Positions 2,496 to 63,965 of a stretch of 64,000 nucleotides of DNA are shown piece after piece. The translations under genes and the position numbers were made by a program. Numbering within the stretch: the stretch's first letter is position 1; the number at the start of each line of letters is the position of its first letter. The notes beneath the pieces were generated by a model. That model had not been told where the DNA came from and searched no databases. It saw only the letters and a list, made by a program, of their open reading frames with translations. This DNA comes from an uncultured Planctomycetia bacterium (GTDB lineage: Bacteria > Omnitrophota > Gorgyraeia > VGKN01): the NCBI GenBank assembly GCA_964506845.1, contig CAZDNS010000001.1, forward strand, positions 5,618 to 69,617, read 5' to 3'.

Positions 2496-3637
2496 AAAAA
2501 TCAAAGTATAACGTAGCAGTAGTTGGTGTAGGTGCAGTAGGGATAGAGATGCTCCGCTGTTTAAGACAGCGCAATTTCCCTGTAGGTGAACTCCGCATTT
2601 TTGCCCGCTCAGAACGGATTATTGAGGTGGACGGCGAAAACTACGCGGTTAAAAGCATATCGCCTGACGGATTTAACAACATAGACATAGCGCTATTTGC
2701 CGGAACTGAGGGTGAGAAGGGAGCGGCAGTAACCTATGCTAAAGAAGTGATAAAAAGGGGTGCAGTGGTTATAGACAACGGCGCGGATTTCAGGATGGAC
2801 CCGGATGTGCCTTTAGTTGTACCAGAAGTAAACGCCAAGGATTTGGATCTCATTAGAAATTGGTTACTTGGAAAAAAACACAGGCCAGAAGGCCGTGGTT
2901 TGGCTTCCAATAGCCAAAGCCACAGGCCAGAAGGCCGTGGTTTGGCTTCCAATAGCCAAAGCCATAAGGGCATAATAGCAAATCCAAACTGCTCCACCAT
3001 TCAAATGGTGGTGGCATTATGGCCTATATATAAAAAGGTCGGTATTAAGAGAATAATTGTAACCACCCTGCAGGCGGCCTCCGGCGCAGGAAGGCAGGCA
3101 GTGGAGCAGTTAAGAAGAGAGTTGATGGAGTTAGGTAAAACAGAGTATCAGAGAATCGGGGTATCAGAAAATCAGGAAAGGGCTTTGCCGCAGCAACTTG
3201 CCCTTAACGTCTTTCCGCATATAGGAAGTTTTACTGAATGTAATTATACCAATGAGGAATGGAAACTGGTAAAGGAAACCCATAAGATTATGCACGCTTA
3301 TAAAATCAAAATCTCGGCAACCACTGTAAGGGTGCCTGTAAGAACAGGCCATTCGGAATCAGTCTATATCGAAACTGAAAAACCGATTGAGCCTGAAAAG
3401 GTAAAGCAGGTTCTCTCAAAGGCTTCCGGAATAATCGTGGTTGACGATATAAAGAATAATCTCTATCCGATGCCGAAGGACACAGAGGGAAAAGATGAGG
3501 TTTTTGTGGGAAGGATACGCAAGGACCCCTTCATTAAAAATGGCCTGTGGCTGTGGATAGTGTCGGATAATCTGAGAAAGGGCGCGGCCCTTAATGCGGT
3601 TCAGATTGCGGAATATTTAATCGGCTTAAAGAAATGA
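2492..3637 (+). CDS. asd: aspartate-semialdehyde dehydrogenase carrying a 28-aa in-frame repeat insertion
   Basis: VGVGAVG N-terminal NAD motif and IANPNCSTI active-site region. 381 aa instead of ~340 because of a duplicated 14-aa insert HRPEGRGLASNSQS x2. Confidence 0.85.
   Translation: MKKSKYNVAVVGVGAVGIEMLRCLRQRNFPVGELRIFARSERIIEVDGENYAVKSISPDGFNNIDIALFAGTEGEKGAAVTYAKEVIKRGAVVIDNGADFRMDPDVPLVVPEVNAKDLDLIRNWLLGKKHRPEGRGLASNSQSHRPEGRGLASNSQSHKGIIANPNCSTIQMVVALWPIYKKVGIKRIIVTTLQAASGAGRQAVEQLRRELMELGKTEYQRIGVSENQERALPQQLALNVFPHIGSFTECNYTNEEWKLVKETHKIMHAYKIKISATTVRVPVRTGHSESVYIETEKPIEPEKVKQVLSKASGIIVVDDIKNNLYPMPKDTEGKDEVFVGRIRKDPFIKNGLWLWIVSDNLRKGAALNAVQIAEYLIGLKK
2879..2962 (+). repeat. perfect 42-bp x2 tandem duplication, internally palindromic, in frame inside asd
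   Basis: Unit cacaggccagaaggccgtggtttggcttccaatagccaaagc at 2879-2920 is repeated exactly at 2921-2962. It contains GGCCagaaGGCC and TTGGCT..AGCCAA arms. Confidence 0.9.
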
Positions 3638-5199
3638 GTCCTGATAAAAAAAGACAGAGCTGGGCATCCCGGCTTGGCATAATACTGGCAGTTGCAGGAA
3701 GCGCAGTAGGGCTTGGAAATTTCCTGAGGTTTCCTGTGCAGGCGGCCTCAAACGGCGGCGGCGCCTTTATGATACCCTATTTCATATCCCTGCTTCTGCT
3801 CGGCATACCGCTTATGTGGATAGAATGGACAATAGGCCGTTTTGGAGGAGGTTTTGGCCACGGGACTGCGCCGGGGATATTCCATTCCCTATGGGAGAAA
3901 AACAGGTTCATCAAATATTTCGGAGTAATTGGAATATTCGGGCCATTAGTCATTTTTATATACTATACCTATATAGAATCCTGGACGCTTGGATACAGTT
4001 TTTTTGCGCTTTTGGGGAAATACGAGGGGATAAAGACCCAGGCGGGTATGCAGAGTTTCCTGAGCGCCTATCAGGGCTTGGAGAAAAACCAGTTTTTTAA
4101 CAGTATTCTGCCTGCATATATCTTCTTTTTGATAACCTTTATATCGAATATTGTAGTGGTATATTTTGGCGTATCAGGAGGGACTGAAAGGCTATGTAAA
4201 ATTGCGATGCCTGTCCTGCTAATAGCGGGAATTATTATGGCTATAAGGGTCCTGACCTTGGGTATCCCTGATTTGTCAAGGCCTGACTGGAATTTGGTAA
4301 ACGGCCTGGGGTTTTTATGGAACCCGGATTTTTCGGTCCTAAAAAGCGCAAGAGTATGGCTTGCTGCATCCGGCCAGATATTTTTTACATTGAGTGTGGG
4401 AATAGGCGTGATTTTAACCTATGCCAGTTACTTAAAAAAGGCGGATGATGTGGCGCTCTCGGGGCTGACTGCCGTAAGCACAAATGAATTTGCCGAGGTA
4501 ATCTTGGGAGGAAGCATAGTAATCCCTGCCGCATACGTATTTTTTGGCCCGGTTGAGATAGCAAATATCGCAAAGGGCGGCGCCTTCAACTTAGGTTTTG
4601 TAACGATGCCTTTAGTCTTACAGCAAATAAACTTCAGCGCCTTTTTTGGCTTTGTATGGTTTTTGCTTTTGTTTCTGGCAGGCGTTACCTCCAGCGTCTC
4701 TTTGATGGAACCTGCTATCGCATTTATGGAGGATGAGTTCGATATTGGCAGAAAAAAAGCGGTTATCATATTTGCAGGAATTTCCTTTATCCTGTGCCAG
4801 CCTGCGATATTCCTTTTAAAACACGGGGTGGTAAACGAGCTGGATTTCTGGGGAGGGACATTCTGCCTGGTTCTGTTCGGGACAGTCGAGGTTATATTAT
4901 TTGCCTGGGTATTCGGAATGGAGAATGCCTGGACGGAAATACACCACGGCGCGGATATAAGGATACCGGATATTTATAAATTCATCATAAAATACATAAC
5001 CCCGCTATTTTTATTCCTTATACTCGGATTCTGGTTTATTCAAGAAGGAATTCCCACCATATTTATGAAGAACGTTGCGGCCGCTGATAAACCCTTTGTC
5101 TTAGGAACAAGGATAGGGCTTTTCATTATCCTTTTGATATTTGCAATAATGGTTAAAATCGCCTGGCGTAAAAAGAGAATTAACCCCGTTAGAGAATAA
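3634..5199 (+). CDS. sodium-dependent transporter, neurotransmitter:sodium symporter (SNF) family
   Basis: 521 aa, multi-TM. N-terminal motif RLGIILAVAGSAVGLGNFLRFP is typical of NSS family. Confidence 0.8.
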   Translation: MSPDKKRQSWASRLGIILAVAGSAVGLGNFLRFPVQAASNGGGAFMIPYFISLLLLGIPLMWIEWTIGRFGGGFGHGTAPGIFHSLWEKNRFIKYFGVIGIFGPLVIFIYYTYIESWTLGYSFFALLGKYEGIKTQAGMQSFLSAYQGLEKNQFFNSILPAYIFFLITFISNIVVVYFGVSGGTERLCKIAMPVLLIAGIIMAIRVLTLGIPDLSRPDWNLVNGLGFLWNPDFSVLKSARVWLAASGQIFFTLSVGIGVILTYASYLKKADDVALSGLTAVSTNEFAEVILGGSIVIPAAYVFFGPVEIANIAKGGAFNLGFVTMPLVLQQINFSAFFGFVWFLLLFLAGVTSSVSLMEPAIAFMEDEFDIGRKKAVIIFAGISFILCQPAIFLLKHGVVNELDFWGGTFCLVLFGTVEVILFAWVFGMENAWTEIHHGADIRIPDIYKFIIKYITPLFLFLILGFWFIQEGIPTIFMKNVAAADKPFVLGTRIGLFIILLIFAIMVKIAWRKKRINPVRE

Positions 5200-5335
5200 A
5201 GTTCTTTAACCCCGTTAGAAAAGAATTTTGTAATTGGGCGAGTGGTGCGCAATGACGATGATTTTAAAACTCATTATAAGTAATCTACGCATAACGACTA
5301 AAAGTCAAAGGTTTTCTCTAACGGGGTAAAACCCC
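5182..5335. repeat. MITE-like inverted-repeat element, copy 1 (AACCCCGTTAGAGAA ... TTCTCTAACGGGGT)
   Basis: Left arm at 5182-5196 also supplies the last codons (INPVRE*) of the transporter. Partial second left arm at 5208-5225. Right arm at 5314-5327. Confidence 0.6.
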
Positions 5336-8096: not shown

Positions 8097-9122
8097 TTGA
8101 TTAAATGTGCGGTTGTGGGCGCAACAGGCTATGCGGGAGAAGTTCTATTAGAACTTTTATTAAAACACCCTAAGGTAAAACTGACCAGCCTTTATGCCAA
8201 GGTAGATTCTGCTCAACCAATATATAATTTTTTCCCCAAGTTTTATGGACGGCTTAATCTATTATGTAAGCCTTTGGAAATAAAAGAGTTAAATAAAAAC
8301 TCTGATTTTATCTTTCTGGCTTTACCCCATAAGGTGTCAATGGAGATTGTTCCGCATATATTACAAAAGGGGAAACGGATAATAGACTTAAGCGCTGACT
8401 ACAGGCTCACGGATTTAGCGATTTATAAAAAATATTATGGGGTAGCTCATCAGGATAATGGAAACATTAAAAAGGCAGTTTATGGTATTCCGGAACTGTA
8501 TAGAAAGAAAATAAAAACCGCTACACTAATAGCAAATCCGGGGTGTTATCCTACAGCCGCAATTTTAGGACTTGCGCCGTTATTTGCTAAAAAGAACCTG
8601 ATAGATATTAACTCCGTCATAATAGACGCAAAATCCGGCTTTACCGGCGCAGGCAGAAATCCAATTGCTCATTTTATATTCTCCGAGGTAAACGAGGCTA
8701 TTAAACCGTATAAGGTTAATGTCCATCAGCATTCTCCTGAAATAGAGCAACAACTCGGCCTTATCGCAGGTGAAAAAATAAGGGTAACATTTGTTCCGCA
8801 CCTTATTCCTATTGACAGGGGAATAATCAGCACGATCTATATAAGGTTAAAGAAGTTAGCAGGCATAGAAGAATTGTTTAGACTATATGAAAATTTCTAC
8901 AAGGGTGAAAAATTTGTAAGAATACTTCAAAGCGGTAAATTCCCTAATTCAAAGGATGTATTAGGAACCAATTTCTGCGACATTGCGCTAAGCCTGGATA
9001 TAGAAAAAAAACAGCTAATAGTAATAAGCGCTATTGATAACCTTATGAAAGGCGCAGCAGGACAGGCCCTTCAGAATATGAATATAATGTGCGGTTTTGA
9101 CGAAACCATTGCTCTAAAGTAA
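8097..9122 (+). CDS. argC: N-acetyl-gamma-glutamyl-phosphate reductase
   Basis: AVVGATGYAGEVL N-terminus. Likely TTG start at 8097 after AAGGAG. The track ORF begins at 8055. Confidence 0.85.
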   Translation: MIKCAVVGATGYAGEVLLELLLKHPKVKLTSLYAKVDSAQPIYNFFPKFYGRLNLLCKPLEIKELNKNSDFIFLALPHKVSMEIVPHILQKGKRIIDLSADYRLTDLAIYKKYYGVAHQDNGNIKKAVYGIPELYRKKIKTATLIANPGCYPTAAILGLAPLFAKKNLIDINSVIIDAKSGFTGAGRNPIAHFIFSEVNEAIKPYKVNVHQHSPEIEQQLGLIAGEKIRVTFVPHLIPIDRGIISTIYIRLKKLAGIEELFRLYENFYKGEKFVRILQSGKFPNSKDVLGTNFCDIALSLDIEKKQLIVISAIDNLMKGAAGQALQNMNIMCGFDETIALK

Positions 9123-9262
9123 ACCCCGTTAGAGAACTTTGTTTTCTAACGGTATTGTGTTGATGATGGCTTTCCTGTCTACCGACAGGTAGAAAACCAC
9201 CATCGAACTTATAAGGTGAAAGCAGTTGGTTAAGTCAGTGGTTTTCTCTAACGGGGTAAAAA
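9122..9262. repeat. MITE-like inverted-repeat element, copy 2
   Basis: AACCCCGTTAGAGAA at 9122-9136 and TTCTCTAACGGGGT at 9244-9257. Internal palindrome CCTGTCTACCGACAGGTAG. Lies between argC and argJ. Confidence 0.6.
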
Positions 9263-14351: not shown

Positions 14352-16570
14352 AATGGCTTTTTTTTATTTCCATTTTTTTAGTTTTTGTTTCTTATGGACA
14401 TAAAAACTCTCTTGCGCAAAATAATGGCCAGGTATCAAAAATAGAAGTAGATGGAAACGTAAACATCGAGAAAGAGGAAGTAGTGAAAACGCTAAAAACG
14501 TATATCGGCGAAGAGATTGACCGCAAAAAACTTCAGAAAGGAATAGCTTCGCTTTATGAACTCGGATTCTTTGAAGATGTTAAAATGAGAGCGGTTGAAA
14601 CTGACGAGGGCATAGCCATCATTACTACTGTCCAGGAAAAACCCGAGCTTAAGAACCTGCGTTTCAGGGGGAATAAATTTGTTTCTCCCCGGCTTATTCA
14701 GAGGGTTCTTATGCTTCAACCTCAGGAGAGGAAGTTTGTTGACCGTAAGCTCTTGGATAACTGCACCGATAGGATACTTAGGCTTTACAGAGACTCGGGA
14801 TATTATTTTGCGCGGGCATATCCCAGGGCGGAAATAGACGAAAAGACTAATGAGGCGTCTGTTACATATATGATCGAAGAGGGTAAACGGATAAAGGTAA
14901 AACGGATAATGGTAGCGGGAAATAAGCGCTTCGCAAGCGGGGAAATTCTTAAATCGATGTCTACCAAAGCCGGCGGCTTTTTTTCTAATGATATATTTTC
15001 CGATGAAGAGCTATCGGCGGATATAAAGAAAATCAGCTCTTTATACCATTCTGACGGATACATAAAGGCAAAGGTTTCGCACAGCCTGTTCTTCGATGAA
15101 AAAAATGAGCATGTTGCGATTCTTATAGTAATTGACGAGGGTATCCGCTATAGCGTGGGTAAAATCTCTGCAAGGGGTAATACCGCTTTAGAGGGGGCAA
15201 AATTTGAAGAGTTGTTTCTGCTAAAAGAGGGGGAGGTTTTTAACCACGATAAACTACTCAAAGGTATAAACAACCTGAATTCCTTTTATTCCAGAAACGG
15301 CTTTCTACTTTCCCGCATTGAATATGCTTTAACTTACCACGATAATGAGCTTAAGGCGGATGTGGAGGTAAAGATAATTGAAAACAATCCCTATACCATA
15401 AACAGGATAATCGTAAAGGGAAACCAAAAGACAAAGGAGCGGATAATAAAGAGGTTTTTGCTTGTCAGAGAGCAGGAAATCTTTGACGGCTATAAGATAT
15501 TCCTTACCCAGAGGCGGTTACAGGAATTAGGTTATTTTAAAAAGGTATCCATTTTAACGCAACAAACCAAATTTCCCGATAAAAGAGACCTTTTAATTGA
15601 CTTGGAGGAGGGCGGCACAAATATGTTTGAGGCAGGGCTTAAATACAGCACTGCCTACGACCTGGGATTTTATGCCAGATTCGATGAAAAAAATCTATTT
15701 GGAAGGGCTCAGAGATTAACCCTTAAAAGCCAAGTCGGAGGAAAGAAAGAGAACGTAACCTTAAGTTTTATTGAGCCTTATTTATTCGAAAGGGATTTAA
15801 GGCTAAAAACCGACCTCTATGGAACCGAGTTAAATATTCCGAGAAGATACTTTAAGGAGAGAAGAGCAGGCGGAGACATTATTTTTACAAAACCGTTGTT
15901 TGGATACACATTTGGCAATCTATCCTACAGATTCGAGGAGGTAAAGGTATTTGATGTAGGGACTGAGGTAAGTGACTATATATTGCCCGGAAAGACAAAT
16001 CTTGCAAGTGTAACAGGTGCCTTGGTAAGGGATACGCGGGATAGTTATTTTTATCCCTTGAGGGGCTCACTTAATAGCGTAGACTTTGAAACCTCAGGAG
16101 ATTTCTTAGGCAGCGATTATAATTTTATTAAATCTGCAGGTGAATCAAATTATTACTTTAATTTGTTAGGCCAGACTGTATTTCTGGTTCGCCTAAGGCT
16201 AGGAATAGTCAGCGGATTCAATGAAAAAAAAGTGCCCCTCTTTGAGAGGTTCTATCTGGGTGGCGCAAACACTATCAGGGGATACGAGGAGGGTGAAATT
16301 GCGCCACGCTTTGGCGGAAAGGCAATGGGTATTGTGAATTTGGAATACAGAATACCGCTTACAAAGAATAAGACGTTTATAAACAGCCTTTTCTACGATG
16401 CGGGTAATTCCTGGGAGGCTATCAGAGACCTTGACATCGGAGACCTAAAGCAGGGATTGGGAACTGCTTTAACATATAATTCCAGATTTGGAAGAGTAGG
16501 TTTGACTTATGGATATGGCATAGATAAACACAAGGATGAAATATACGTAAATATCGGAAATAACTTTTAA
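14348..16570 (+). CDS. bamA: outer membrane protein assembly factor BamA (Omp85 family)
   Basis: 740 aa. Signal peptide, repeated POTRA-like modules, C-terminal beta-barrel ending in aromatic-rich strands. Sits directly after surA-like. Confidence 0.75.
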   Translation: MKWLFFISIFLVFVSYGHKNSLAQNNGQVSKIEVDGNVNIEKEEVVKTLKTYIGEEIDRKKLQKGIASLYELGFFEDVKMRAVETDEGIAIITTVQEKPELKNLRFRGNKFVSPRLIQRVLMLQPQERKFVDRKLLDNCTDRILRLYRDSGYYFARAYPRAEIDEKTNEASVTYMIEEGKRIKVKRIMVAGNKRFASGEILKSMSTKAGGFFSNDIFSDEELSADIKKISSLYHSDGYIKAKVSHSLFFDEKNEHVAILIVIDEGIRYSVGKISARGNTALEGAKFEELFLLKEGEVFNHDKLLKGINNLNSFYSRNGFLLSRIEYALTYHDNELKADVEVKIIENNPYTINRIIVKGNQKTKERIIKRFLLVREQEIFDGYKIFLTQRRLQELGYFKKVSILTQQTKFPDKRDLLIDLEEGGTNMFEAGLKYSTAYDLGFYARFDEKNLFGRAQRLTLKSQVGGKKENVTLSFIEPYLFERDLRLKTDLYGTELNIPRRYFKERRAGGDIIFTKPLFGYTFGNLSYRFEEVKVFDVGTEVSDYILPGKTNLASVTGALVRDTRDSYFYPLRGSLNSVDFETSGDFLGSDYNFIKSAGESNYYFNLLGQTVFLVRLRLGIVSGFNEKKVPLFERFYLGGANTIRGYEEGEIAPRFGGKAMGIVNLEYRIPLTKNKTFINSLFYDAGNSWEAIRDLDIGDLKQGLGTALTYNSRFGRVGLTYGYGIDKHKDEIYVNIGNNF

Positions 16571-16574
16571 AAGA

Positions 16575-16706
16575 GGTAACCGCAAAAGCGCAGAATAACC
16601 ATCAAAACGCAAAATATCCTATAGAAGCGCAAAGAAAGACTTCCGCGTTTCAGTGTTTACTAATTTAGCGATTTAATGGTTACAAATTTTGCGTTTCAGC
16701 GGTTGT
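16575..16706 (+). promoter_or_regulatory. conserved upstream cassette, copy A (GGTAACCGCAAAAGCGC ... AGCGGTTACAAATTTTG ... CGTTTCAGCGGTTG)
   Basis: Member of a 4-copy family (46234, 48355, 61877). Ends 18 bp before the ATG at 16724. Confidence 0.6.
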
Positions 16707-16723
16707 AAAGTAGGAGTGTGTAA

Positions 16724-17361: not shown

Positions 17362-18066
17362 ATGAAAAGGTTATTTTTAGTCCTTTTATTGGTAGCCACG
17401 CCCGTTAAATGTCTGGCAGAGGGTTCCAGCTGGGACTGGTGGAACGACTGGGTGGAAAGGTCATACTTTTATGTGTATGCGCAAAAAAAACAGATGGATT
17501 ACGAATGGCCGAATTCCTGGTACACGTACGTTCAGGGAAAATACGATTTTTCTCCGACAATCTACGGAGCGGAATGGGATCTGGCAGACAGGTATGTCGG
17601 CAAGGGCAGGCTTTCAAATCTGTACTTTAAGGTAAAGCATCAACCTGAGGTAAAATATCCGAGAGATGAGGAGAGTTACTACGAAAACTACGGCTACACA
17701 GATGCAGAGCTTAATACCGACATAAGACTGATAGGAAACTGGAACCTTGCCTTAGGTTATGGCCTGGAAAAAAGAATTTACGATTATCCTGACCCATCTG
17801 AGTTCAGGGGAAAAGAAAGGTGGGTGTATGATGCTACCTTAAATCATTGGAGATTACGGACAGCCGCAGAACTCGATGCTGCAGGGTTCACTACAAACCC
17901 GCAACCTATGCCTTTTGCGGATGAGTCAGAATGGACCAACCATACGTTCACGGTGGGCCTAAAATACTATGGCAGCGCATACGTGGATATAAAATACGGC
18001 ACAAGCTGGTGGCCGCCGATATATGGAGCAGTCAGAACAATACCTGCTGAGACAGAATTAGAATGA
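17362..18066 (+). CDS. secreted Trp/Tyr-rich hypothetical protein
   Basis: Signal peptide, 234 aa, WDWWNDW-type aromatic-rich sequence. Confidence 0.4.
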   Translation: MKRLFLVLLLVATPVKCLAEGSSWDWWNDWVERSYFYVYAQKKQMDYEWPNSWYTYVQGKYDFSPTIYGAEWDLADRYVGKGRLSNLYFKVKHQPEVKYPRDEESYYENYGYTDAELNTDIRLIGNWNLALGYGLEKRIYDYPDPSEFRGKERWVYDATLNHWRLRTAAELDAAGFTTNPQPMPFADESEWTNHTFTVGLKYYGSAYVDIKYGTSWWPPIYGAVRTIPAETELE

Positions 18067-18132
18067 GCAGTCGGGGATTTTTATATAAAGTCGACTGCTC
18101 ATGAGAGGTCGTGGAAAATTCCCCGACCTCTC
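18062..18132. repeat. two consecutive hairpins after the secreted-protein gene
   Basis: TGAGCAGTCG..CGACTGCTCA and GAGAGGTCG..CGACCTCTC. The arms are shared with the hairpins at 59915-60010. Confidence 0.5.
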
Positions 18133-30036: not shown

Positions 30037-30270
30037 ATGGCGGAAAAAGTCGCAAAGGCTGGCATCAAGAGAGAGAAGGGCTACCTGTATTATCTTGATA
30101 AGCAGGGTGACATCTCAAAGGCAAAGATGGCAAGAGGCGGAAAAAAGGGCGGAAATCCAAGTAAGGTCACAAAGCTTGGCGTAAAAAGAGCTGAAGGCTA
30201 TCTTTATTTTATTGACAAACACGGCGATGTCTCAAGAGCAAAGATGGCCCGAAAAGGAAAGAAAAGATAA
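30037..30270 (+). CDS. small lysine-rich basic protein with internal duplication
   Basis: 77 aa. Two ~30-aa halves, KREKGYLYYLDKQGDISKAKMARGGKKGG and KRAEGYLYFIDKHGDVSRAKMARKGKKR. AAGGAGG RBS. Confidence 0.4.
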   Translation: MAEKVAKAGIKREKGYLYYLDKQGDISKAKMARGGKKGGNPSKVTKLGVKRAEGYLYFIDKHGDVSRAKMARKGKKR

Positions 30271-30287
30271 TCTTTTTAAAAAAATAA

Positions 30288-37956: not shown

Positions 37957-38098
37957 AGACACAACTTATGCCTGCCTGTCGGCAGACAGGGAATGCAATG
38001 ACATAAGCTGTGTGTCTGAATTTACCCTTGACATCTTCGATGTCAAGGGTCCAACTCGCACAGCAACTTATGTTCACTTTGTTCCATAAGTTGTGTGC
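37957..38098. promoter_or_regulatory. nested inverted-repeat cassette, copy 3, carrying an inserted GC palindrome
   Basis: CCCTTGACATCTTCGATGTCAAGGG at 38024-38048. CCTGCCTGTCGGCAGACAGG at 37971-37990. Outer arms GAAGACACAACTTATG / CATAAGTTGTGTGCT. Confidence 0.5.
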
Positions 38099-38388: not shown

Positions 38389-39539
38389 GGAGTTTATTTC
38401 TAGTATTTACTATATTCTTTTTCTTTTCCATGGCAGCAAGCCCCGTTAGAGAACAAAATTCTCTAACTGCCTGGGCTGATAATGATTTTAAATCACCATT
38501 GGCTTTAAACAGTAACGACCCCAGATTAAAGTCGGCGGCTTTCTCTAACGGGGTAAACGGACAGGAGAACAAGCCTTTTATTGGAGAGATAACTTCTGAC
38601 AGGGTAAATGTAAGGGCAGGCCCGGATTTAAACTTCGAGATAATATATAGCCTCGATAAAGGCCAGAAGATAGAGGTTAAAGAGGAACAGTTCGGCTGGT
38701 ACAGGATACAGCTGCCAGAAGAGTGTGTTCTTTATATAAATAAGGAATTCGTAAGCAAGGATGCGGATAATTACCTGGCAAAAGCGGAAGGGGTAAACGT
38801 AAGGTCGGGGGCAGGTTTTGAATTTAACGTAGTGGGGCAATTATCAAAGGGAAGCAAAATCGAGGTTATCAGGGAGGAGCTTAAGTGGTACGGTATAAAA
38901 GCGACGCCCGATTGCTCCGGATGGGTCAATTCAAAATATATAAGATTTTATGAAACTATGGAGAAGTATAAGCTCGACCTGGCGAGGAAAGAGGCGGCAG
39001 GGAAAAATTATTCTAAGATACTATCAAATTATACCCGCGAGTTAAAACAAAATATATCCGATATGAAACTTGAGCCAATCCGTGCGGATTTTGAAAGATT
39101 TCTTGTTGATTATCCCGATACGCCCCAGGCAAAACTAGCCCAAGAAAAAATAGACGAAATAAATTTAAAATTACTCGAAATAGAACATCTAAAGACGAGG
39201 GAGAGTTTAAAAGAAGCCCGGCAGGAATTTAGAGAGGCGAAGAGACTAATAGATGAAAAAATATCTCTCATAGATAATATAGCCCAAATAAAAACTAACG
39301 TAAGAAAGGACCCGCCAGCCTACGTTGGGACAATAGAGGATGTCGGTATTTTATGGAACAGGCCTGCCAGGCATAAACTCTGCAATGAGAATAAAGAAAT
39401 CTTATGTTATCTTGCATCAGAAAAAATAGATTTAAACCGATTCATTTACAGAAAGGTAAGACTATGGGGAAAGGCTGAACCCCTACCCAACTCAGAGAAG
39501 AAATTGCTAAGGGTAAGTTATCTGGAAGAAATGGATTAA
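38385..39539 (+). CDS. secreted protein with two bacterial SH3 domains and a coiled-coil C-terminal region
   Basis: Signal peptide. SH3b-like VNVRAGPDLNFEII..WYRI and VNVRSGAGFEF..WYGI. MITE-like element copy 3 lies in frame after the signal peptide. Confidence 0.55.
   Translation: MRSLFLVFTIFFFFSMAASPVREQNSLTAWADNDFKSPLALNSNDPRLKSAAFSNGVNGQENKPFIGEITSDRVNVRAGPDLNFEIIYSLDKGQKIEVKEEQFGWYRIQLPEECVLYINKEFVSKDADNYLAKAEGVNVRSGAGFEFNVVGQLSKGSKIEVIREELKWYGIKATPDCSGWVNSKYIRFYETMEKYKLDLARKEAAGKNYSKILSNYTRELKQNISDMKLEPIRADFERFLVDYPDTPQAKLAQEKIDEINLKLLEIEHLKTRESLKEARQEFREAKRLIDEKISLIDNIAQIKTNVRKDPPAYVGTIEDVGILWNRPARHKLCNENKEILCYLASEKIDLNRFIYRKVRLWGKAEPLPNSEKKLLRVSYLEEMD
38439..38558. repeat. MITE-like inverted-repeat element, copy 3 (inside the SH3-protein reading frame)
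   Basis: AGCCCCGTTAGAGAA at 38439-38453 plus adjacent hairpin partner TTCTCTAAC. Right arm TTCTCTAACGGGGT at 38541-38554. Confidence 0.55.
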
Positions 39540-46150: not shown

Positions 46151-46233
46151 ACCCACAGAGCCGTATAAAGTTAAGATAATATAAAAGACTCTTGACATAT
46201 AAACGCGCAAATATTAAAATAAAGCAAAAAAAG

Positions 46234-46402
46234 GGTAACCGCAAAAGCGCAGAATAACCACCAAAGCGCAAAATATCCCTGCCTGTCGCCTGCCTGACGG
46301 TAGTCAGGGCAGGCGCAAAGAAAGACTTCTGCGTTTCGGCGTTTACTAATTTCGCTATTTAGCGGTTACAAATTTTGCGTTTCAGCGGTTGCAAAAAAGG
46401 AG
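46234..46402 (+). promoter_or_regulatory. conserved upstream cassette, copy B (with palindromic insert CCTGCCTGACGGTAGTCAGGGCAGG)
   Basis: Collinear with copies A, C and D. Followed by hairpin GTGCT..AGCAC, then GAAGGAGG and the ATG at 46440. Confidence 0.6.
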
Positions 46403-46439
46403 TGCTTTGACTACGCTCAGCACTTCGAAGGAGGTAAAA

Positions 46440-48354: not shown

Positions 48355-48503
48355 ATCCCCTCCTTTTTTGCAACCGCTGAAACGCCTGTCTGCCGACAGG
48401 CAGACAAAATTTGTAACCGCTAAATAGCAAAATTAGTAAACGCCAAAACGCAGAAGTCTTTCTTTACGCCTCTGCCGATATTTTGCGCTTTGGCGGTTAC
48501 CCC
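48355..48503 (-). promoter_or_regulatory. conserved upstream cassette, copy C (contains GTCTGCCTGTCGGCAGACAGG insert)
   Basis: Reverse complement aligns with copies A, B and D. 20-nt palindrome at 48385-48406. Confidence 0.6.
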
Positions 48504-48694
48504 TTTTGTTTGGTTAATTACATACAAAAAAGGCTGCGAGACTTTGGGTTCGCTCAAACTTGTGACAGCCGGGTCACCTTTTTAAATTTCCTTAGCGCTC
48601 AATAGTCTCACAGCCAGCTAAACTCTACCATATCGAACAGATTTTGTCAATAGCAGTATTTAAAATTTAAGAAACGAGAAATATTTATAATTAA

Positions 48695-48875
48695 CCGAGG
48701 GGTCGGGAAGTTTTTGTGTTTTTAGACCCCTCATCCTGAGGAGTAAAGCAACGAAGGATCTCATAGATCCTTCAGCCCTTCGGGCTTCCCCGGCCCGCTC
48801 CGCTTTGCCGGGGCGGGCAGGATGAGAGCCCTCGGCGAAAAAATAGAGAAAAAACTCCCCGAGAGCTCAATTAAC
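48695..48875. repeat. GC-rich ~100-nt structured repeat, copy 1 (CTCATCCTG ... GAAGGATCTcataGATCCTTC ... CAGGATGAG), terminator-like position
   Basis: Core at 48730-48827. Flanked by CCGAGGGG / CCCCGAGAGCTC arms. Lies 3' of the 48888..49961(-) gene. Confidence 0.5.
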
Positions 48876-59914: not shown

Positions 59915-60010
59915 TTCTACTATTATCTGAGGAGTCGGGGTGTTTTTTATATGTTTTTCCGACCTCTCATGAGCAGTCGACTTATAGAAAAACTCCCTAA
60001 CTGCTCATTA
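59915..60010. repeat. hairpin repeat pair homologous to 18062-18132
   Basis: GAGGAGTCGGGGTGTTTTTTATATG.. and ATGAGCAGTCGAC..ACTGCTCAT. Confidence 0.45.
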
Positions 60011-60034
60011 TTATCTTACCTTTTAAGGATTCTG

Positions 60035-61876: not shown

Positions 61877-62041
61877 ACTATCCTCCTTTTTTGGAACCGC
61901 TGAAACGCCTGTCTGCCGACAGGCAGACAAAATTTGTAACCGCTAAAACGCAAAAGTTTCTTTGCGTCTTTGCGCCTACCTACCCTGACTACCGTTAGGC
62001 AGGCGGCGGGTAGGGATATTTTGCGCTTTTGCGGTTACCCC
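61877..62041 (-). promoter_or_regulatory. conserved upstream cassette, copy D, between the riboswitch and the receptor gene
   Basis: Aligns with copies A-C. Contains GTCTGCCTGTCGGCAGACAGG (61908-61929) and a CCTACCCGCCGCCTGCCTAACGGTAGTCAGGGTAGG insert. Confidence 0.6.
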
Positions 62042-62230
62042 TTTTTAATAAAAAACCCGACCTTCGTTGGCCGGGTGGTTTGTTAATATTTCCTTCCGTC
62101 GAAGGCATTCTCCTGAATGAGTAATGGACCAGACTCATCCCGAAAGTTCGGAATATTACTGTTGCGGGGCAGTGCCCGGAATTCCCTCTAAATTAGGTCA
62201 CCGGGACTTCCTTTACTCACTCGGTAAAAA
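62042..62230 (-). ncRNA. cobalamin (AdoCbl) riboswitch with intrinsic-terminator expression platform
   Basis: Minus strand: AAAGGAAGUCCCGGUGA, GGGAAUUCCGGGCACUGCCCCGCAACAGUAA, B12-box-like GAGUCUGGUCC. Terminator CCCGGCCaacgaaGGUCGGG then UUUUUU. Confidence 0.7.
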
Positions 62231-63778: not shown

Positions 63779-63794
63779 CTTCGTAATTCATTTG

Positions 63795-63965
63795 AGGGAT
63801 CGGGGTGTTTTCTATATGTCTCCCGAGCCCTCATCCTGAGGAGCGAAGCGACGAAGGATCTCATAGATCCTTCAGCCCTTCAGGCTTCCCCGGCCCGCTC
63901 CGCTTTGCCGGGGCGGGCAGGATGAGCCCCGAGACAAAAAATTCCCCGAGGGCTCATTCATTTAA
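63795..63965. repeat. GC-rich ~100-nt structured repeat, copy 2
   Basis: Near-identical to 48728-48830 (CTCATCCTGAGGAG..GAAGGATCTCATAGATCCTTC..GCCGGGGCGGGCAGGATGAG). Confidence 0.5.

What the first reader, a model, noticed from the sequence alone, without database searches (positions are those of the whole stretch)
5182..5335. MITE-like element with AACCCCGTTAGAGAA / TTCTCTAACGGGGT terminal inverted repeats (3 copies)
Copies lie at 5182-5335, 9122-9262 and 38439-38558. Each has a 15-nt left arm, immediately followed by its own short hairpin partner (TTCTCTAAC). An 80-100 bp unrelated core follows, then the perfectly complementary right arm. Copy 1 supplies the final six codons and stop of the NSS transporter. 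Copy 2 sits between argC and argJ. Copy 3 lies inside an ORF. The copies are small and non-coding, have terminal inverted repeats and lie in unrelated contexts. This fits a miniature inverted-repeat transposable element or a structured small RNA family.
Basis: seen in the sequence. Interest (0 to 1): 0.6.

Follow-up and report, generated by a model that had tools for sequence, protein, structure and literature searches.

The report
Gene-invading miniature transposon family in Omnitrophota
The three repeats are copies of a small, apparently undescribed mobile DNA element of about 113 bases that duplicates 4 bases where it lands, is sized so it can sit inside genes without breaking the reading frame, and in related genomes often lands in the signal region of pilus-protein genes.

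Summary
The three copies exist, with perfect 13-nt arms CCCCGTTAGAGAA / TTCTCTAACGGGG. The cores are not unrelated. All three derive from one 113-nt consensus (79-82% identity). Copies 1 and 2 carry small nested hairpin insertions.

Most are Omnitrophota MAGs. The modal length is 113 nt.

- Flanks are TTTA|TTTA in 103 of 132 copies.
- Matched variant flanks, and nested 27-36-nt mini-hairpins that duplicate other tetranucleotides, show a true 4-bp target-site duplication.
- Relatives have empty sites at all three window positions.
- 113+4 = 117 nt keeps the reading frame.
- The consensus has one open frame in each orientation.
- About 40% of copies lie inside long ORFs.
- About 15-17% sit exactly at the Gly|Phe-Thr cleavage motif of prepilin genes and rebuild that motif.

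I found no Rfam, Pfam or NCBIfam match and no mention in the searchable literature. There is no strand bias that would indicate an RNA. I did not find the transposase.

Verdict: a genuine MITE, a new family that behaves like Rickettsia palindromic elements. The enzyme that moves it is inferred, not shown.

The parts
5180..5183 (.). Left flank of copy 1 (TTAA), an imperfect copy of the duplicated target
   Evidence: The right flank is TAAA. Relatives L120 and L119 have one xAAA here.
5184..5326 (+). Copy 1, 143 nt: the 113-nt element plus a nested insertion. It supplies ...PVRE and the stop (5197-5199) of the SNF-family transporter.
   Evidence: It is absent from the 96% and 94% identical relatives.
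5184..5196 (+). Copy 1 left terminal inverted repeat CCCCGTTAGAGAA
   Evidence: exact match
5210..5238 (+). Degenerate nested mini-hairpin element (CCCCGTTAGAAAAGAATTTTGTAATTGGG) inside copy 1
   Evidence: one-mismatch arm at 5210; about 30-nt insertion relative to the consensus; intact examples
5314..5326 (-). Copy 1 right terminal inverted repeat
   Evidence: exact match
5327..5330 (.). Right target-site duplication TAAA of copy 1
9120..9123 (.). Left target-site duplication TAAA of copy 2. Its TAA (9120-9122) is the argC stop codon.
   Evidence: In 12 other copies an ORF also stops in this TAA.
9124..9256 (+). Copy 2, 133 nt, in the argC-argJ spacer: the 113-nt element plus a 20-nt insertion
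   Evidence: Relative L121 has no element between argC and argJ.
9174..9193 (+). Unrelated small hairpin repeat CCTGTCTACCGACAGGTAGA, inserted in the loop of internal hairpin P2 of copy 2
   Evidence: Three more copies lie in the window at 37971, 48385 and 61908.
9257..9260 (.). Right target-site duplication TAAA of copy 2
38437..38440 (.). Left flank of copy 3 (CAAG), a degenerate duplicate of the target
   Evidence: The empty site in L118 reads GCAG-CAAA-TGGACAG.
38441..38553 (+). Copy 3, canonical 113 nt. With 4 flanking bases it is read in frame as 39 residues (SPVREQNSLT...AAFSNGV), directly after the N-terminal hydrophobic (apparent signal) segment of an SH3-domain protein.
38554..38557 (.). 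Right target-site duplication TAAA of copy 3

Best explanation
The three repeats are copies of a non-autonomous cut-and-paste DNA transposon (a MITE). The mobile unit is defined by two 13-bp terminal inverted repeats, CCCCGTTAGAGAA. A transposase supplied in trans is inferred to bind these arms. It would cut the target with a 4-nt stagger, preferentially at 5'-TTTA(C)-3', always in the same orientation relative to the element. Repair of the stagger gives the 4-bp duplication. The arms alone appear sufficient, because 27-36-nt hairpins made of little more than two arms also insert and duplicate 4 bp. The common form is 113 nt: arms, a second copy of the right arm next to the left arm, and two internal hairpins. 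Because 113+4 = 117 nt and the consensus has one stop-free frame in each orientation, an insertion into a gene adds 39 residues instead of destroying it. Copies therefore persist inside genes, at gene ends and between genes. Shown here: inverted repeats, duplication, dispersal, presence/absence at orthologous sites, nesting and frame compatibility. Inferred: the type of enzyme. A DDE transposase making 4-bp duplications is the best guess (IS5-, IS701- or IS1380/piggyBac-like). No function for the host is implied.
For: Arms and chance. Family size: more than 117 stretches from about 30 MAGs, modal length 113 nt in 70 of 132 copies. Duplication: TTTA|TTTA in 103/132 copies, with matched variants CTTA, TTCA, TGAA, TTTG and TTGA on both sides. 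Nested mini-elements duplicate tetranucleotides that occur once in the known consensus: TTAG, TCAG, CTAA, CGAG, CTGA. 11 of 25 have identical flanks, against 1/256 each by chance. Empty sites: for copy 3, three orthologues lack exactly 39 aa and the syntenic locus L118 lacks the DNA. For copy 1, relatives with 94-96% identical protein lack about 147 nt. For copy 2, L121 lacks it. Frame compatibility: 105/132 lengths satisfy (length+4) mod 3 = 0. One open frame per orientation, and 48-54 of 132 copies inside long ORFs. Frames stay open in 45 and 50 of 61 copies, against 32 and 28 expected under random substitution. No known RNA or protein family matches.
Against: No autonomous element with these arms was found. 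There was none in 0.85 Mb of loci plus the window, none among 10 large ORFs of the window at 48-64 kb, and none in viral contigs or plasmids. Insertion is orientation-specific at an asymmetric target (C follows the right TTTA in 81% of copies, with nothing conserved on the left), which is unusual for DDE transposases. The flanks of copies 1 and 3 are imperfect duplicates. Internal hairpins show compensatory changes, so something beyond the arms is maintained.
Confidence: 0.85

Rival explanations
1. A hairpin element moved as single-stranded DNA by an HUH/Y1 enzyme, like REP/REPIN sequences with RAYT or the palindrome-associated derivatives of IS200/IS605. The enzyme would recognise the folded arm stem and the adjacent tetranucleotide.
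For: The whole element folds into one long hairpin (-40 to -50 kcal/mol, z -3.4 to -7.2). Minimal versions are simple hairpins. Insertion is orientation-specific next to an asymmetric tetranucleotide. Internal hairpins are kept by compensatory changes without strand bias, as expected for a DNA-level structure. The flanks of copies 1 and 3 fit 'element carries its own TAAA' slightly better than a perfect duplication.
Against: Mini-elements nested in the known consensus duplicate varied tetranucleotides that are present once in the consensus. Matched variant flanks occur in full-size copies. IS200/IS605 and REP elements make no duplication (my own knowledge of these families). No such gene was noticed near any copy, but the ORFs of the loci were not screened.
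Confidence: 0.07
2. A family of structured small RNAs or cis-regulatory RNA hairpins (terminator, processing site or stabiliser) spread by duplication and kept for that function.
For: Strong predicted folds. Some covariation in two hairpins: 45 doubly changed cells against 17.5 in shuffles. The left hairpin of copy 2 is followed by a T-rich stretch and scores as terminator-like. 12 copies sit directly on a stop codon.
Against: No Rfam match even at permissive thresholds. Copies lie in both orientations relative to genes and inside ORFs. G:U-type mismatches (57) equal A:C-type mismatches (55), so neither strand is favoured. The 3n length constraint and the maintained open frames point to translation, not RNA function. 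Close relatives do without the element.
Confidence: 0.03
3. A host-owned coding or recombination module: a conserved peptide cassette (for example an extended prepilin leader) or a site for a site-specific recombinase, as with integron attC sites or pilin-switching invertases.
For: 22 of 51 prepilin N-termini in the loci carry it exactly before G|FT, and the motif is rebuilt. The arms contain GTTAGAG/CTCTAAC, which resembles attC core sites. CPR genomes hold tandem arrays of short units with the same arms (L070, L074).
Against: Most copies are not in pilin genes. The same DNA is read in two different frames and orientations, giving unrelated peptides. Neither peptide matches any Pfam or NCBIfam model. 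The core-site order is the reverse of attC (GTTAGAG first, CTCTAAC last), and in Omnitrophota the copies are dispersed rather than arrayed. No inversions between copies were seen.
Confidence: 0.03

Closest known systems
Rickettsia palindromic elements (RPE), MITE-like repeats inserted in frame in protein genes (reviewed in PMC10969869)
   Same: Palindromic and about 100-150 bp. Many copies lie inside unrelated housekeeping ORFs as in-frame fusions. Each element carries an open frame. No transposase is known.
   Different: No sequence relation: the element peptides hit no NCBIfam or Pfam model. The hosts are different phyla. This family has clear 13-bp inverted repeats, a clear 4-bp duplication and a defined target TTTA(C). 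It has 27-36-nt minimal versions and a hotspot in prepilin leaders.
Classical bacterial MITEs such as Correia/NEMIS (Neisseria), RUP (pneumococcus) and ERIC (own knowledge, and PMC10969869)
   Same: Small size, terminal inverted repeats, target duplication, dispersed intergenic and gene-end copies, and a strong hairpin when transcribed.
   Different: Those elements duplicate TA or other short sites, and the first two are tied to known IS families (own knowledge). Here the duplication is 4 bp at TTTA(C), the partner IS is unknown, and the length is constrained to 3n-4.
piggyBac superfamily and its prokaryotic relatives, the IS1380 family (PMC10813416; IS1380 features from my own knowledge of ISfinder tables)
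   Same: The inverted repeats start with CCC. The duplication is a 4-bp T/A-rich site: TTAA in piggyBac, with reported variants TTAG, TAAA and CTAA, the same tetranucleotides seen here.
   Different: No transposase was found, so this is a resemblance of ends and target only. The main target here is the asymmetric TTTA, not the palindromic TTAA.
REP/REPIN elements with RAYT transposases, and IS200/IS605-derived palindromic elements
   Same: Hairpin-forming repeats, orientation-specific placement, and a conserved tetranucleotide next to the stem.
   Different: Those elements make no target duplication and carry a GTAG-type motif (own knowledge). Here varied 4-bp duplications are demonstrable. 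No RAYT-like gene was noticed, but none was searched for.

Membership tests
MITE (prokaryotic miniature inverted-repeat transposable element) | Small size with no room for a transposase gene | tested here: met
   113-143 nt in the window; modal length 113 nt in 70 of 132 copies
MITE (prokaryotic miniature inverted-repeat transposable element) | Terminal inverted repeats | tested here: met
   13/13 complementary arms in all three copies
MITE (prokaryotic miniature inverted-repeat transposable element) | Target-site duplication | tested here: met
   TTTA|TTTA in 103/132 copies plus matched variants. 11 of 25 mini-elements have identical, varied 4-mers on both sides. The flanks of window copies 1 and 3 are imperfect.
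MITE (prokaryotic miniature inverted-repeat transposable element) | Many dispersed copies in unrelated contexts | tested here: met
   More than 117 stretches, with at least 22 loci from one MAG (DeMMO3_19)
MITE (prokaryotic miniature inverted-repeat transposable element) | Presence/absence polymorphism at orthologous sites | tested here: met
   Empty sites for all three window copies
MITE (prokaryotic miniature inverted-repeat transposable element) | An autonomous IS with the same inverted repeats and duplication length | tested here: inconclusive
   None in about 0.85 Mb of loci plus the window. Whole genomes could not be scanned.
Rickettsia palindromic elements (RPE) | In-frame insertion in ORFs with an element-encoded open frame | tested here: met
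   Copy 3. 48-54 of 132 copies are read through. One open frame per orientation.
Rickettsia palindromic elements (RPE) | Sequence homology to RPE families | tested here: not met
   The consensus peptides hit no NCBIfam or Pfam model at E<=1. DNA was not compared directly.
piggyBac / IS1380-type transposon ends | Inverted repeat starting CC(C), with a 4-bp T/A-rich duplication | tested here: met
   CCCC... ends and TTTA/TAAA, TTAG, CTAA duplications. The comparison rests on PMC10813416.
piggyBac / IS1380-type transposon ends | A cognate DDE/DDD transposase of that family bounded by the same ends | not testable with these tools
   No way to scan whole genomes by protein family. None was seen in the held loci.
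REP/REPIN-RAYT or IS200/IS605-derived palindromic elements | No target duplication; insertion next to a fixed tetranucleotide | tested here: not met
   Varied 4-bp duplications of sequences that occur once in the known consensus
REP/REPIN-RAYT or IS200/IS605-derived palindromic elements | An associated Y1/HUH transposase gene flanked by the repeats | not tested
   The ORFs in the loci were not screened systematically.
Rfam structured RNA families | A match to a curated covariance model | tested here: not met
   No hit at gathering score in the window or in 10 loci. Only chance-level hits at E<=10.
Integron attC sites | RYYYAAC ... GTTRRRY order, in cassette arrays next to an integrase | tested here: not met
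   The order is reversed (GTTAGAG ... CTCTAAC) and the last base does not fit. The copies are dispersed and lie inside genes.
Prepilin-type N-terminal cleavage/methylation motif (for the preferred target genes, not the element) | G|F-T-L-[IV]-E followed by a hydrophobic segment | tested here: met
   The part of the L044 protein downstream of the element hits TIGR02532 at 25.6 bits (cut-off 16.3). It scores 20.2 bits against PF07963 (Pfam cut-off 21.2), which is below threshold. 22 of 51 such motifs in the loci are preceded by an element.

The most novel reading that the evidence does not exclude
The family is adapted to live in the leader peptide of prepilin (type IV pilin and pseudopilin) genes. 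Its target TTT-AC is the Phe-Thr codon pair of the G|FTLxE cleavage motif. Its last bases (ACG GGG) plus the duplicated TTTA rebuild Thr-Gly|Phe-Thr. Its arm plus duplication (TTTACCCCGTTAGAG) is 12-14 of 15 identical to typical pilin N-terminal coding sequence. The 39 extra residues would then be removed with the leader by the prepilin peptidase, which would make this a transposon that hides in a part of a protein that is thrown away. Hosts might use it to vary leader length or translation starts. 27 of 61 canonical copies have CAT at the start of the P2 loop, which on the opposite strand gives an in-frame ATG (checked by translation only in L044 4715), preceded there by GGTGG. In addition, the 27-36-nt hairpins would be among the smallest mobile DNA units known.
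Probability: 0.25. Interest if true: 0.75.

Novelty: new member of a known kind. Interest (0 to 1): 0.5.

Why it matters
It gives a name and an anatomy to a repeat that recurs in many Omnitrophota genomes and in MAGs labelled as other uncultivated lineages. These genomes are known only from metagenomes. There the repeat disturbs gene calling: callers produce spurious 33-64-residue ORFs over it, and they probably mis-start pilin genes. It also adds 39-residue segments to real proteins, including giant ones. It extends in-frame selfish DNA, so far best known from Rickettsia, to free-living and episymbiotic environmental bacteria. Presence/absence between near-identical strains (94-96% protein identity) shows recent activity, so it could serve as a strain marker. 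If the prepilin preference reflects adaptation rather than survivorship, it would be a new way for a transposon to avoid harming its host.

Tried and rejected
- **Known RNA families.** Rfam at gathering score on the window and on 10 loci, and at E<=10 on copy 3, gave nothing relevant.
- **Autonomous partner.**
  - Arm pairs 0.7-3.5 kb apart with a 4-bp duplication only joined neighbouring small copies.
  - All-against-all BLAST of the loci found no IS-like repeats.
  - Pfam on 10 large ORFs of window 48-64 kb found no transposase.
  - Viral contigs gave 0 hits with two patterns.
  - Plasmids gave no match.
- **Protein-level census.** The consensus peptide found only 6 short ORFs. The window peptide found 11 weak hits among 1.84 billion representatives. 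Both searches were insensitive with such short queries.
- **ArgC look-up.** An exact-sequence look-up failed, probably because the start codon was wrong.
- **Terminator idea.** Only copy 2's left hairpin scores as terminator-like. Copy 1 does not.
- **attC and REP models.** Both were rejected on the order of the motifs and on the presence of a duplication.
- **117-nt tandem repeat at 30046-30263.** I suspected degenerate copies. It is a small basic protein with two 39-residue repeats, unrelated to this element.
- **Phylum labels.** I tried to check the labels on non-Omnitrophota MAGs by GC content. It does not discriminate: 0.37-0.52 in both groups.
- **Literature.** No paper holds the arm sequences. 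No paper joins MITEs with Omnitrophica. The two papers that mention both MITEs and prepilin were not read, and their titles are unrelated. Two Omnitrophota genome papers and a 2024 MITE review do not mention this element.
Full report
**1. The observation.**

The three loci were read directly. Each holds CCCCGTTAGAGAA on the + strand and its exact reverse complement 87-117 nt downstream. The arm pairs are 5184-5196 / 5314-5326, 9124-9136 / 9244-9256 and 38441-38453 / 38541-38553. A search for the 13-mer with up to two mismatches gave 8 hits against 1.6 expected, and none of 100 shuffles reached 8.

Pfam confirms the gene contexts:
- Copy 1 ends an SNF-family transporter and precedes a pseudouridine synthase.
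- Copy 2 lies between an ArgC-like semialdehyde dehydrogenase, whose TAA stop is 9120-9122, and ArgJ. The ArgJ Pfam match begins at residue 32 of the TTG-started ORF, so its real start is downstream of the element.
- Copy 3 lies inside an SH3-domain protein.

**2. The cores are related.**

Extracting every arm pair gave 132 elements, of which 70 are exactly 113 nt long. Their consensus, with flanks, is:

GTAAA-CCCCGTTAGAGAACTTCGTTCTCTAACGGTTTGCGCTGACGGTGGCTTTAAACCACCGTCAGCTTTAAAAGGTGATGACCACCGATTAAAGTCGGTGGCTTTCTCTAACGGGG-TAAAC

Each window copy was aligned to it:

| Copy | Identity to consensus | Difference from the 113-nt form |
|---|---|---|
| 3 | 79%, no gaps | none |
| 2 | 80% | 20-nt hairpin (9174-9193) inserted in the loop of the first internal hairpin |
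| 1 | about 82% | degenerate 29-nt mini-hairpin (5210-5238) built from the same arm motif |

So 'unrelated core' is wrong within this family. At a higher level it has some truth. Sister families share the arm motif but have different interiors. Examples are those with arms CCCCGTTAGAGAC (L017, L026, L046), the GC-rich form in an Uhrbacteria MAG (L001, L011), and the short tandem units in Saccharibacteria and Nomurabacteria MAGs (L070, L074).

**3. It is mobile DNA.**

*Flanks.* I oriented all copies by their internal sequence.
- 103 of 132 are flanked by TTTA on both sides.
- The rare variants are often the same on both sides: CTTA twice, TTCA twice, TGAA, TTTG and TTGA.

*Nested mini-elements.* The cleanest proof of duplication comes from 27-36-nt hairpins made of two arms and a short loop. 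Several are nested inside 113-nt copies whose consensus is known. There they are flanked by two copies of a tetranucleotide that the consensus has once:
- TTAG in L072 and L092
- TCAG in L005 and L032
- CTAA in L115

Over all 25 mini-elements, 11 have identical 4-mers on both sides, of seven different sequences. Chance would give 1 in 256 for each.

*Empty sites.* They exist for all three window copies.
- Copy 3: three orthologues of the SH3 protein (47-82% identity in the alignment) lack exactly the 39 residues SPVRE...FSNGV. The syntenic locus L118 reads GCAG-CAAA-TGGACAG where the window reads GCAG-CAAG-[113 nt]-TAAA-CGGACAG.
- Copy 1: transporters 96% and 94% identical end ...RKKRIKARKI and ...RKKRVKAHKG, whereas the window protein ends ...RKKRINPVRE. 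Their DNA lacks about 147 nt.
- Copy 2: in a metagenomic relative (66% ArgJ identity), argC's TAA is followed by 10 nt and then the argJ ATG.

The flanks of copies 1 and 3 are not perfect duplicates (TTAA/TAAA and CAAG/TAAA). For these two alone one could not tell a duplication from an element that carries its own TAAA. The nested cases settle the point for the family.

**4. Target and orientation.**

Outside pilin genes nothing is conserved to the left of the left TTTA. To the right of the right TTTA, C follows in 81% of copies and T in 58%. The element therefore enters an asymmetric site, TTTAC(T), in one orientation. That is unusual for DDE transposases and is the main reason I keep a single-strand, hairpin-based mechanism as a rival.

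**5. Compatibility with coding sequence.**

- 113+4 = 117 nt.
- 105 of 132 copies have a length for which length+4 is a multiple of three. One third would be expected by chance.
- The consensus has exactly one stop-free frame in each orientation, NPVRELRSLTVCADGGFKPPSALKGDDHRLKSVAFSNGV and FTPLEKATDFNRWSSPFKADGGLKPPSAQTVRERSSLTGF.
- Between 48 and 54 of 132 copies lie inside long open frames that continue on both sides. Some are very large ORFs that span the whole 8-kb locus.
- In 22 further copies an ORF ends in the element's flank or arm. Of 23 such stop positions counted in them, 12 use the TAA of the duplication, as argC does here, and 8 use the TAG inside the arm.
- Among 61 canonical copies the two frames are open in 45 and 50. 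That compares with 32±4 and 28±4 if the same number of substitutions were placed at random. Shared ancestry inflates this contrast, but it fits survival of copies that can be translated.
- The two peptides match no Pfam or NCBIfam model.

**6. Prepilin genes.**

In one orientation the right end plus flank reads ...TCT CTA ACG GGG | TTT ACN, that is S-L-T-G|F-T.
- In 19 of 132 copies by a strict pattern, what follows is the prepilin motif FTL[IV]E and a hydrophobic segment. The count is 22 of the 51 prepilin-type N-termini found in the loci when sister families are included.
- What precedes the element in these cases is a normal short leader such as MKKGF or MENKKLKKGF.
- The part of one such protein downstream of the element passes the NCBIfam prepilin N-terminal model (TIGR02532, 25.6 bits against a cut-off of 16.3).

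So the element has landed on the TTT-AC codons of Phe-Thr, has duplicated them, and its own GGGG restores the Gly before the cleavage point. I infer, and have not shown, that the 39 extra residues become part of the leader that the prepilin peptidase removes.

The share of copies in pilin genes (about 15-17%) is far above the share of TTTAC sites such genes can represent. I cannot tell whether that reflects target choice or survival of harmless insertions. Target choice is plausible because arm plus duplication resembles the pilin coding sequence at 12-14 of 15 positions. The window itself has no prepilin motif by this pattern.

**7. Not an RNA gene.**

- The elements fold strongly on either strand.
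- The two internal hairpins show compensatory changes. One pair has A-T in 28 sequences and G-C in 21. There are 45 doubly changed cells against 17.5 in shuffles.
- Mismatches that would be G:U on the aligned strand (57) are as common as those that would be G:U on the other strand (55).
- Copies occur in both orientations relative to transcription.
- No Rfam family matches.

The hairpins are therefore maintained at the DNA level or inherited from a few master copies. Nothing points to a discrete functional RNA.

**8. What moves it.**

I found no autonomous partner. The features point to candidates only, and this step is inference:
- The ends start with CCCC and the duplications are 4-bp and T/A-rich (TTTA/TAAA, TTAG, CTAA).
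- piggyBac elements have inverted repeats starting CCC and TTAA duplications, with exactly these rare variants. IS1380 transposases are their bacterial relatives (PMC10813416).
- From my own knowledge of ISfinder tables, IS1380 ends start CC with 4-5-bp duplications. The IS5 group and IS701 also make 4-bp duplications.
- IS5-family elements are reported in Omnitrophota (bioRxiv 10.64898/2026.06.07.730766).

**9. Distribution and novelty.**

Most loci come from Omnitrophota MAGs, at least 22 of them from one MAG. Others are labelled Planctomycetota, Nitrospirota, Ratteibacteria, Auribacterota, Elusimicrobia, Ignavibacterium, Deltaproteobacteria and several CPR lineages. I could not verify these labels, and GC content does not separate them. 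The distinct subfamilies in CPR MAGs argue that at least part of the spread is real.

The literature check found nothing on this element:
- No paper in the searchable library holds the arm sequences.
- No paper joins MITEs with Omnitrophica.
- The two papers that mention both MITEs and prepilin were not read, and their titles are unrelated.
- A 2024 review of prokaryotic MITEs mentions neither pilin, Planctomycetes nor IS1380.
- Two Omnitrophota genome papers mention no palindromic repeats.

The kind is known: a MITE with the in-frame habit of Rickettsia palindromic elements. The family appears to be new.

**10. Verdict.**

The finding is real, and its main interpretation is right. It is a genuine MITE of a new family with RPE-like in-frame behaviour. 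The transposase is inferred, not shown. Interest is moderate. It would rise if the prepilin association proves to be an adaptation, or if the tiny hairpins are confirmed as independent mobile units.

Noticed in passing
window 9174-9193, 37971-37990 (-), 48385-48404, 61908-61927: A second small hairpin repeat, CCTGTCTRCCGACAGGYAGA, occurs four times against 0 expected. One copy is nested in the loop of copy 2, and no duplication is evident around it.
   Followed up: partly
window 16558-16718, 46217-46404, 48359-48507, 61882-62048: A 150-190-nt repeat family (85-96% identity) that contains the hairpin above. Two copies in inverted orientation (46311-46377 / 48405-48471, 96% complementary) bracket a 2-kb segment. 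That segment holds a PilZ-domain ORF and two ORFs with no family match. It could be another MITE family, a composite element or an invertible segment.
   Followed up: partly
window 48725-48826 / 63825-63926; 59925-59954 / 63790-63819; 18057-18111 / 59960-60014: Further long repeats: a 102-nt direct repeat at 95% identity and a 55-nt inverted repeat at 82%. They lie near TonB-dependent receptor, TonB-like and cobalamin-related genes. Their nature is unknown.
   Followed up: no
window 30038-30271: A small basic protein made of two repeats of about 39 residues (DNA period 117 nt). It is not related to the element, despite the same period.
   Followed up: yes
window 2874-2957: Two tandem 42-nt units (95% identity) within the region of the gene upstream of the transporter.
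   Followed up: no
L070 337-540; L074 3408-3547: In MAGs labelled Saccharibacteria and Nomurabacteria, the same arms bound short units (59 and 72 nt including TTGA) repeated head to tail. In L074 the array lies inside a long ORF (over 700 codons upstream and 294 downstream).
   Followed up: no
L017 1907 and 2945; L026 3472; L046 4138: A sister family of about 125 nt, with arms CCCCGTTAGAGAC...GTCTCTRACGGGG and a different interior, also sits right before G|FT of prepilin genes. In L026 and L046 it lies in tandem with a canonical copy, so that one pilin gene has two insertions in its leader.
   Followed up: partly
L044 3712-3929; L012, L023, L052, L071, L099, L105 (143-nt copies): The loop of the first internal hairpin (TTTAAA) is a hotspot for other small insertions. 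These include a 105-nt insert in L044 and a recurrent 30-nt GC-rich hairpin (…TTCCGCCAGAGGCGGATTCGCCTTTGGCGGAA…) in one MAG.
   Followed up: no
alignment A4 columns 46-52; e.g. L044 4715-4827: 27 of 61 canonical copies have CAT at the start of this loop (22 read CATTAAA). In the prepilin orientation this gives an in-frame ATG; I confirmed the frame by translation only in L044 4715. There the ATG is preceded by GGTGG, and starting from it would give a 16-residue leader (MPPSAKTVRGQSSLTG|F...).
   Followed up: no
L173 3607-3708; L174 8978-9145; proteins P0125-P0130: Gene callers turn intergenic copies of the element into 33-64-residue 'hypothetical proteins' in public records.
   Followed up: partly
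L174 12619-15312: An RtcB gene with weak to faint intein-related Pfam hits (Intein_splicing weak, LAGLIDADG_3 faint) in an Omnitrophota contig.
   Followed up: no
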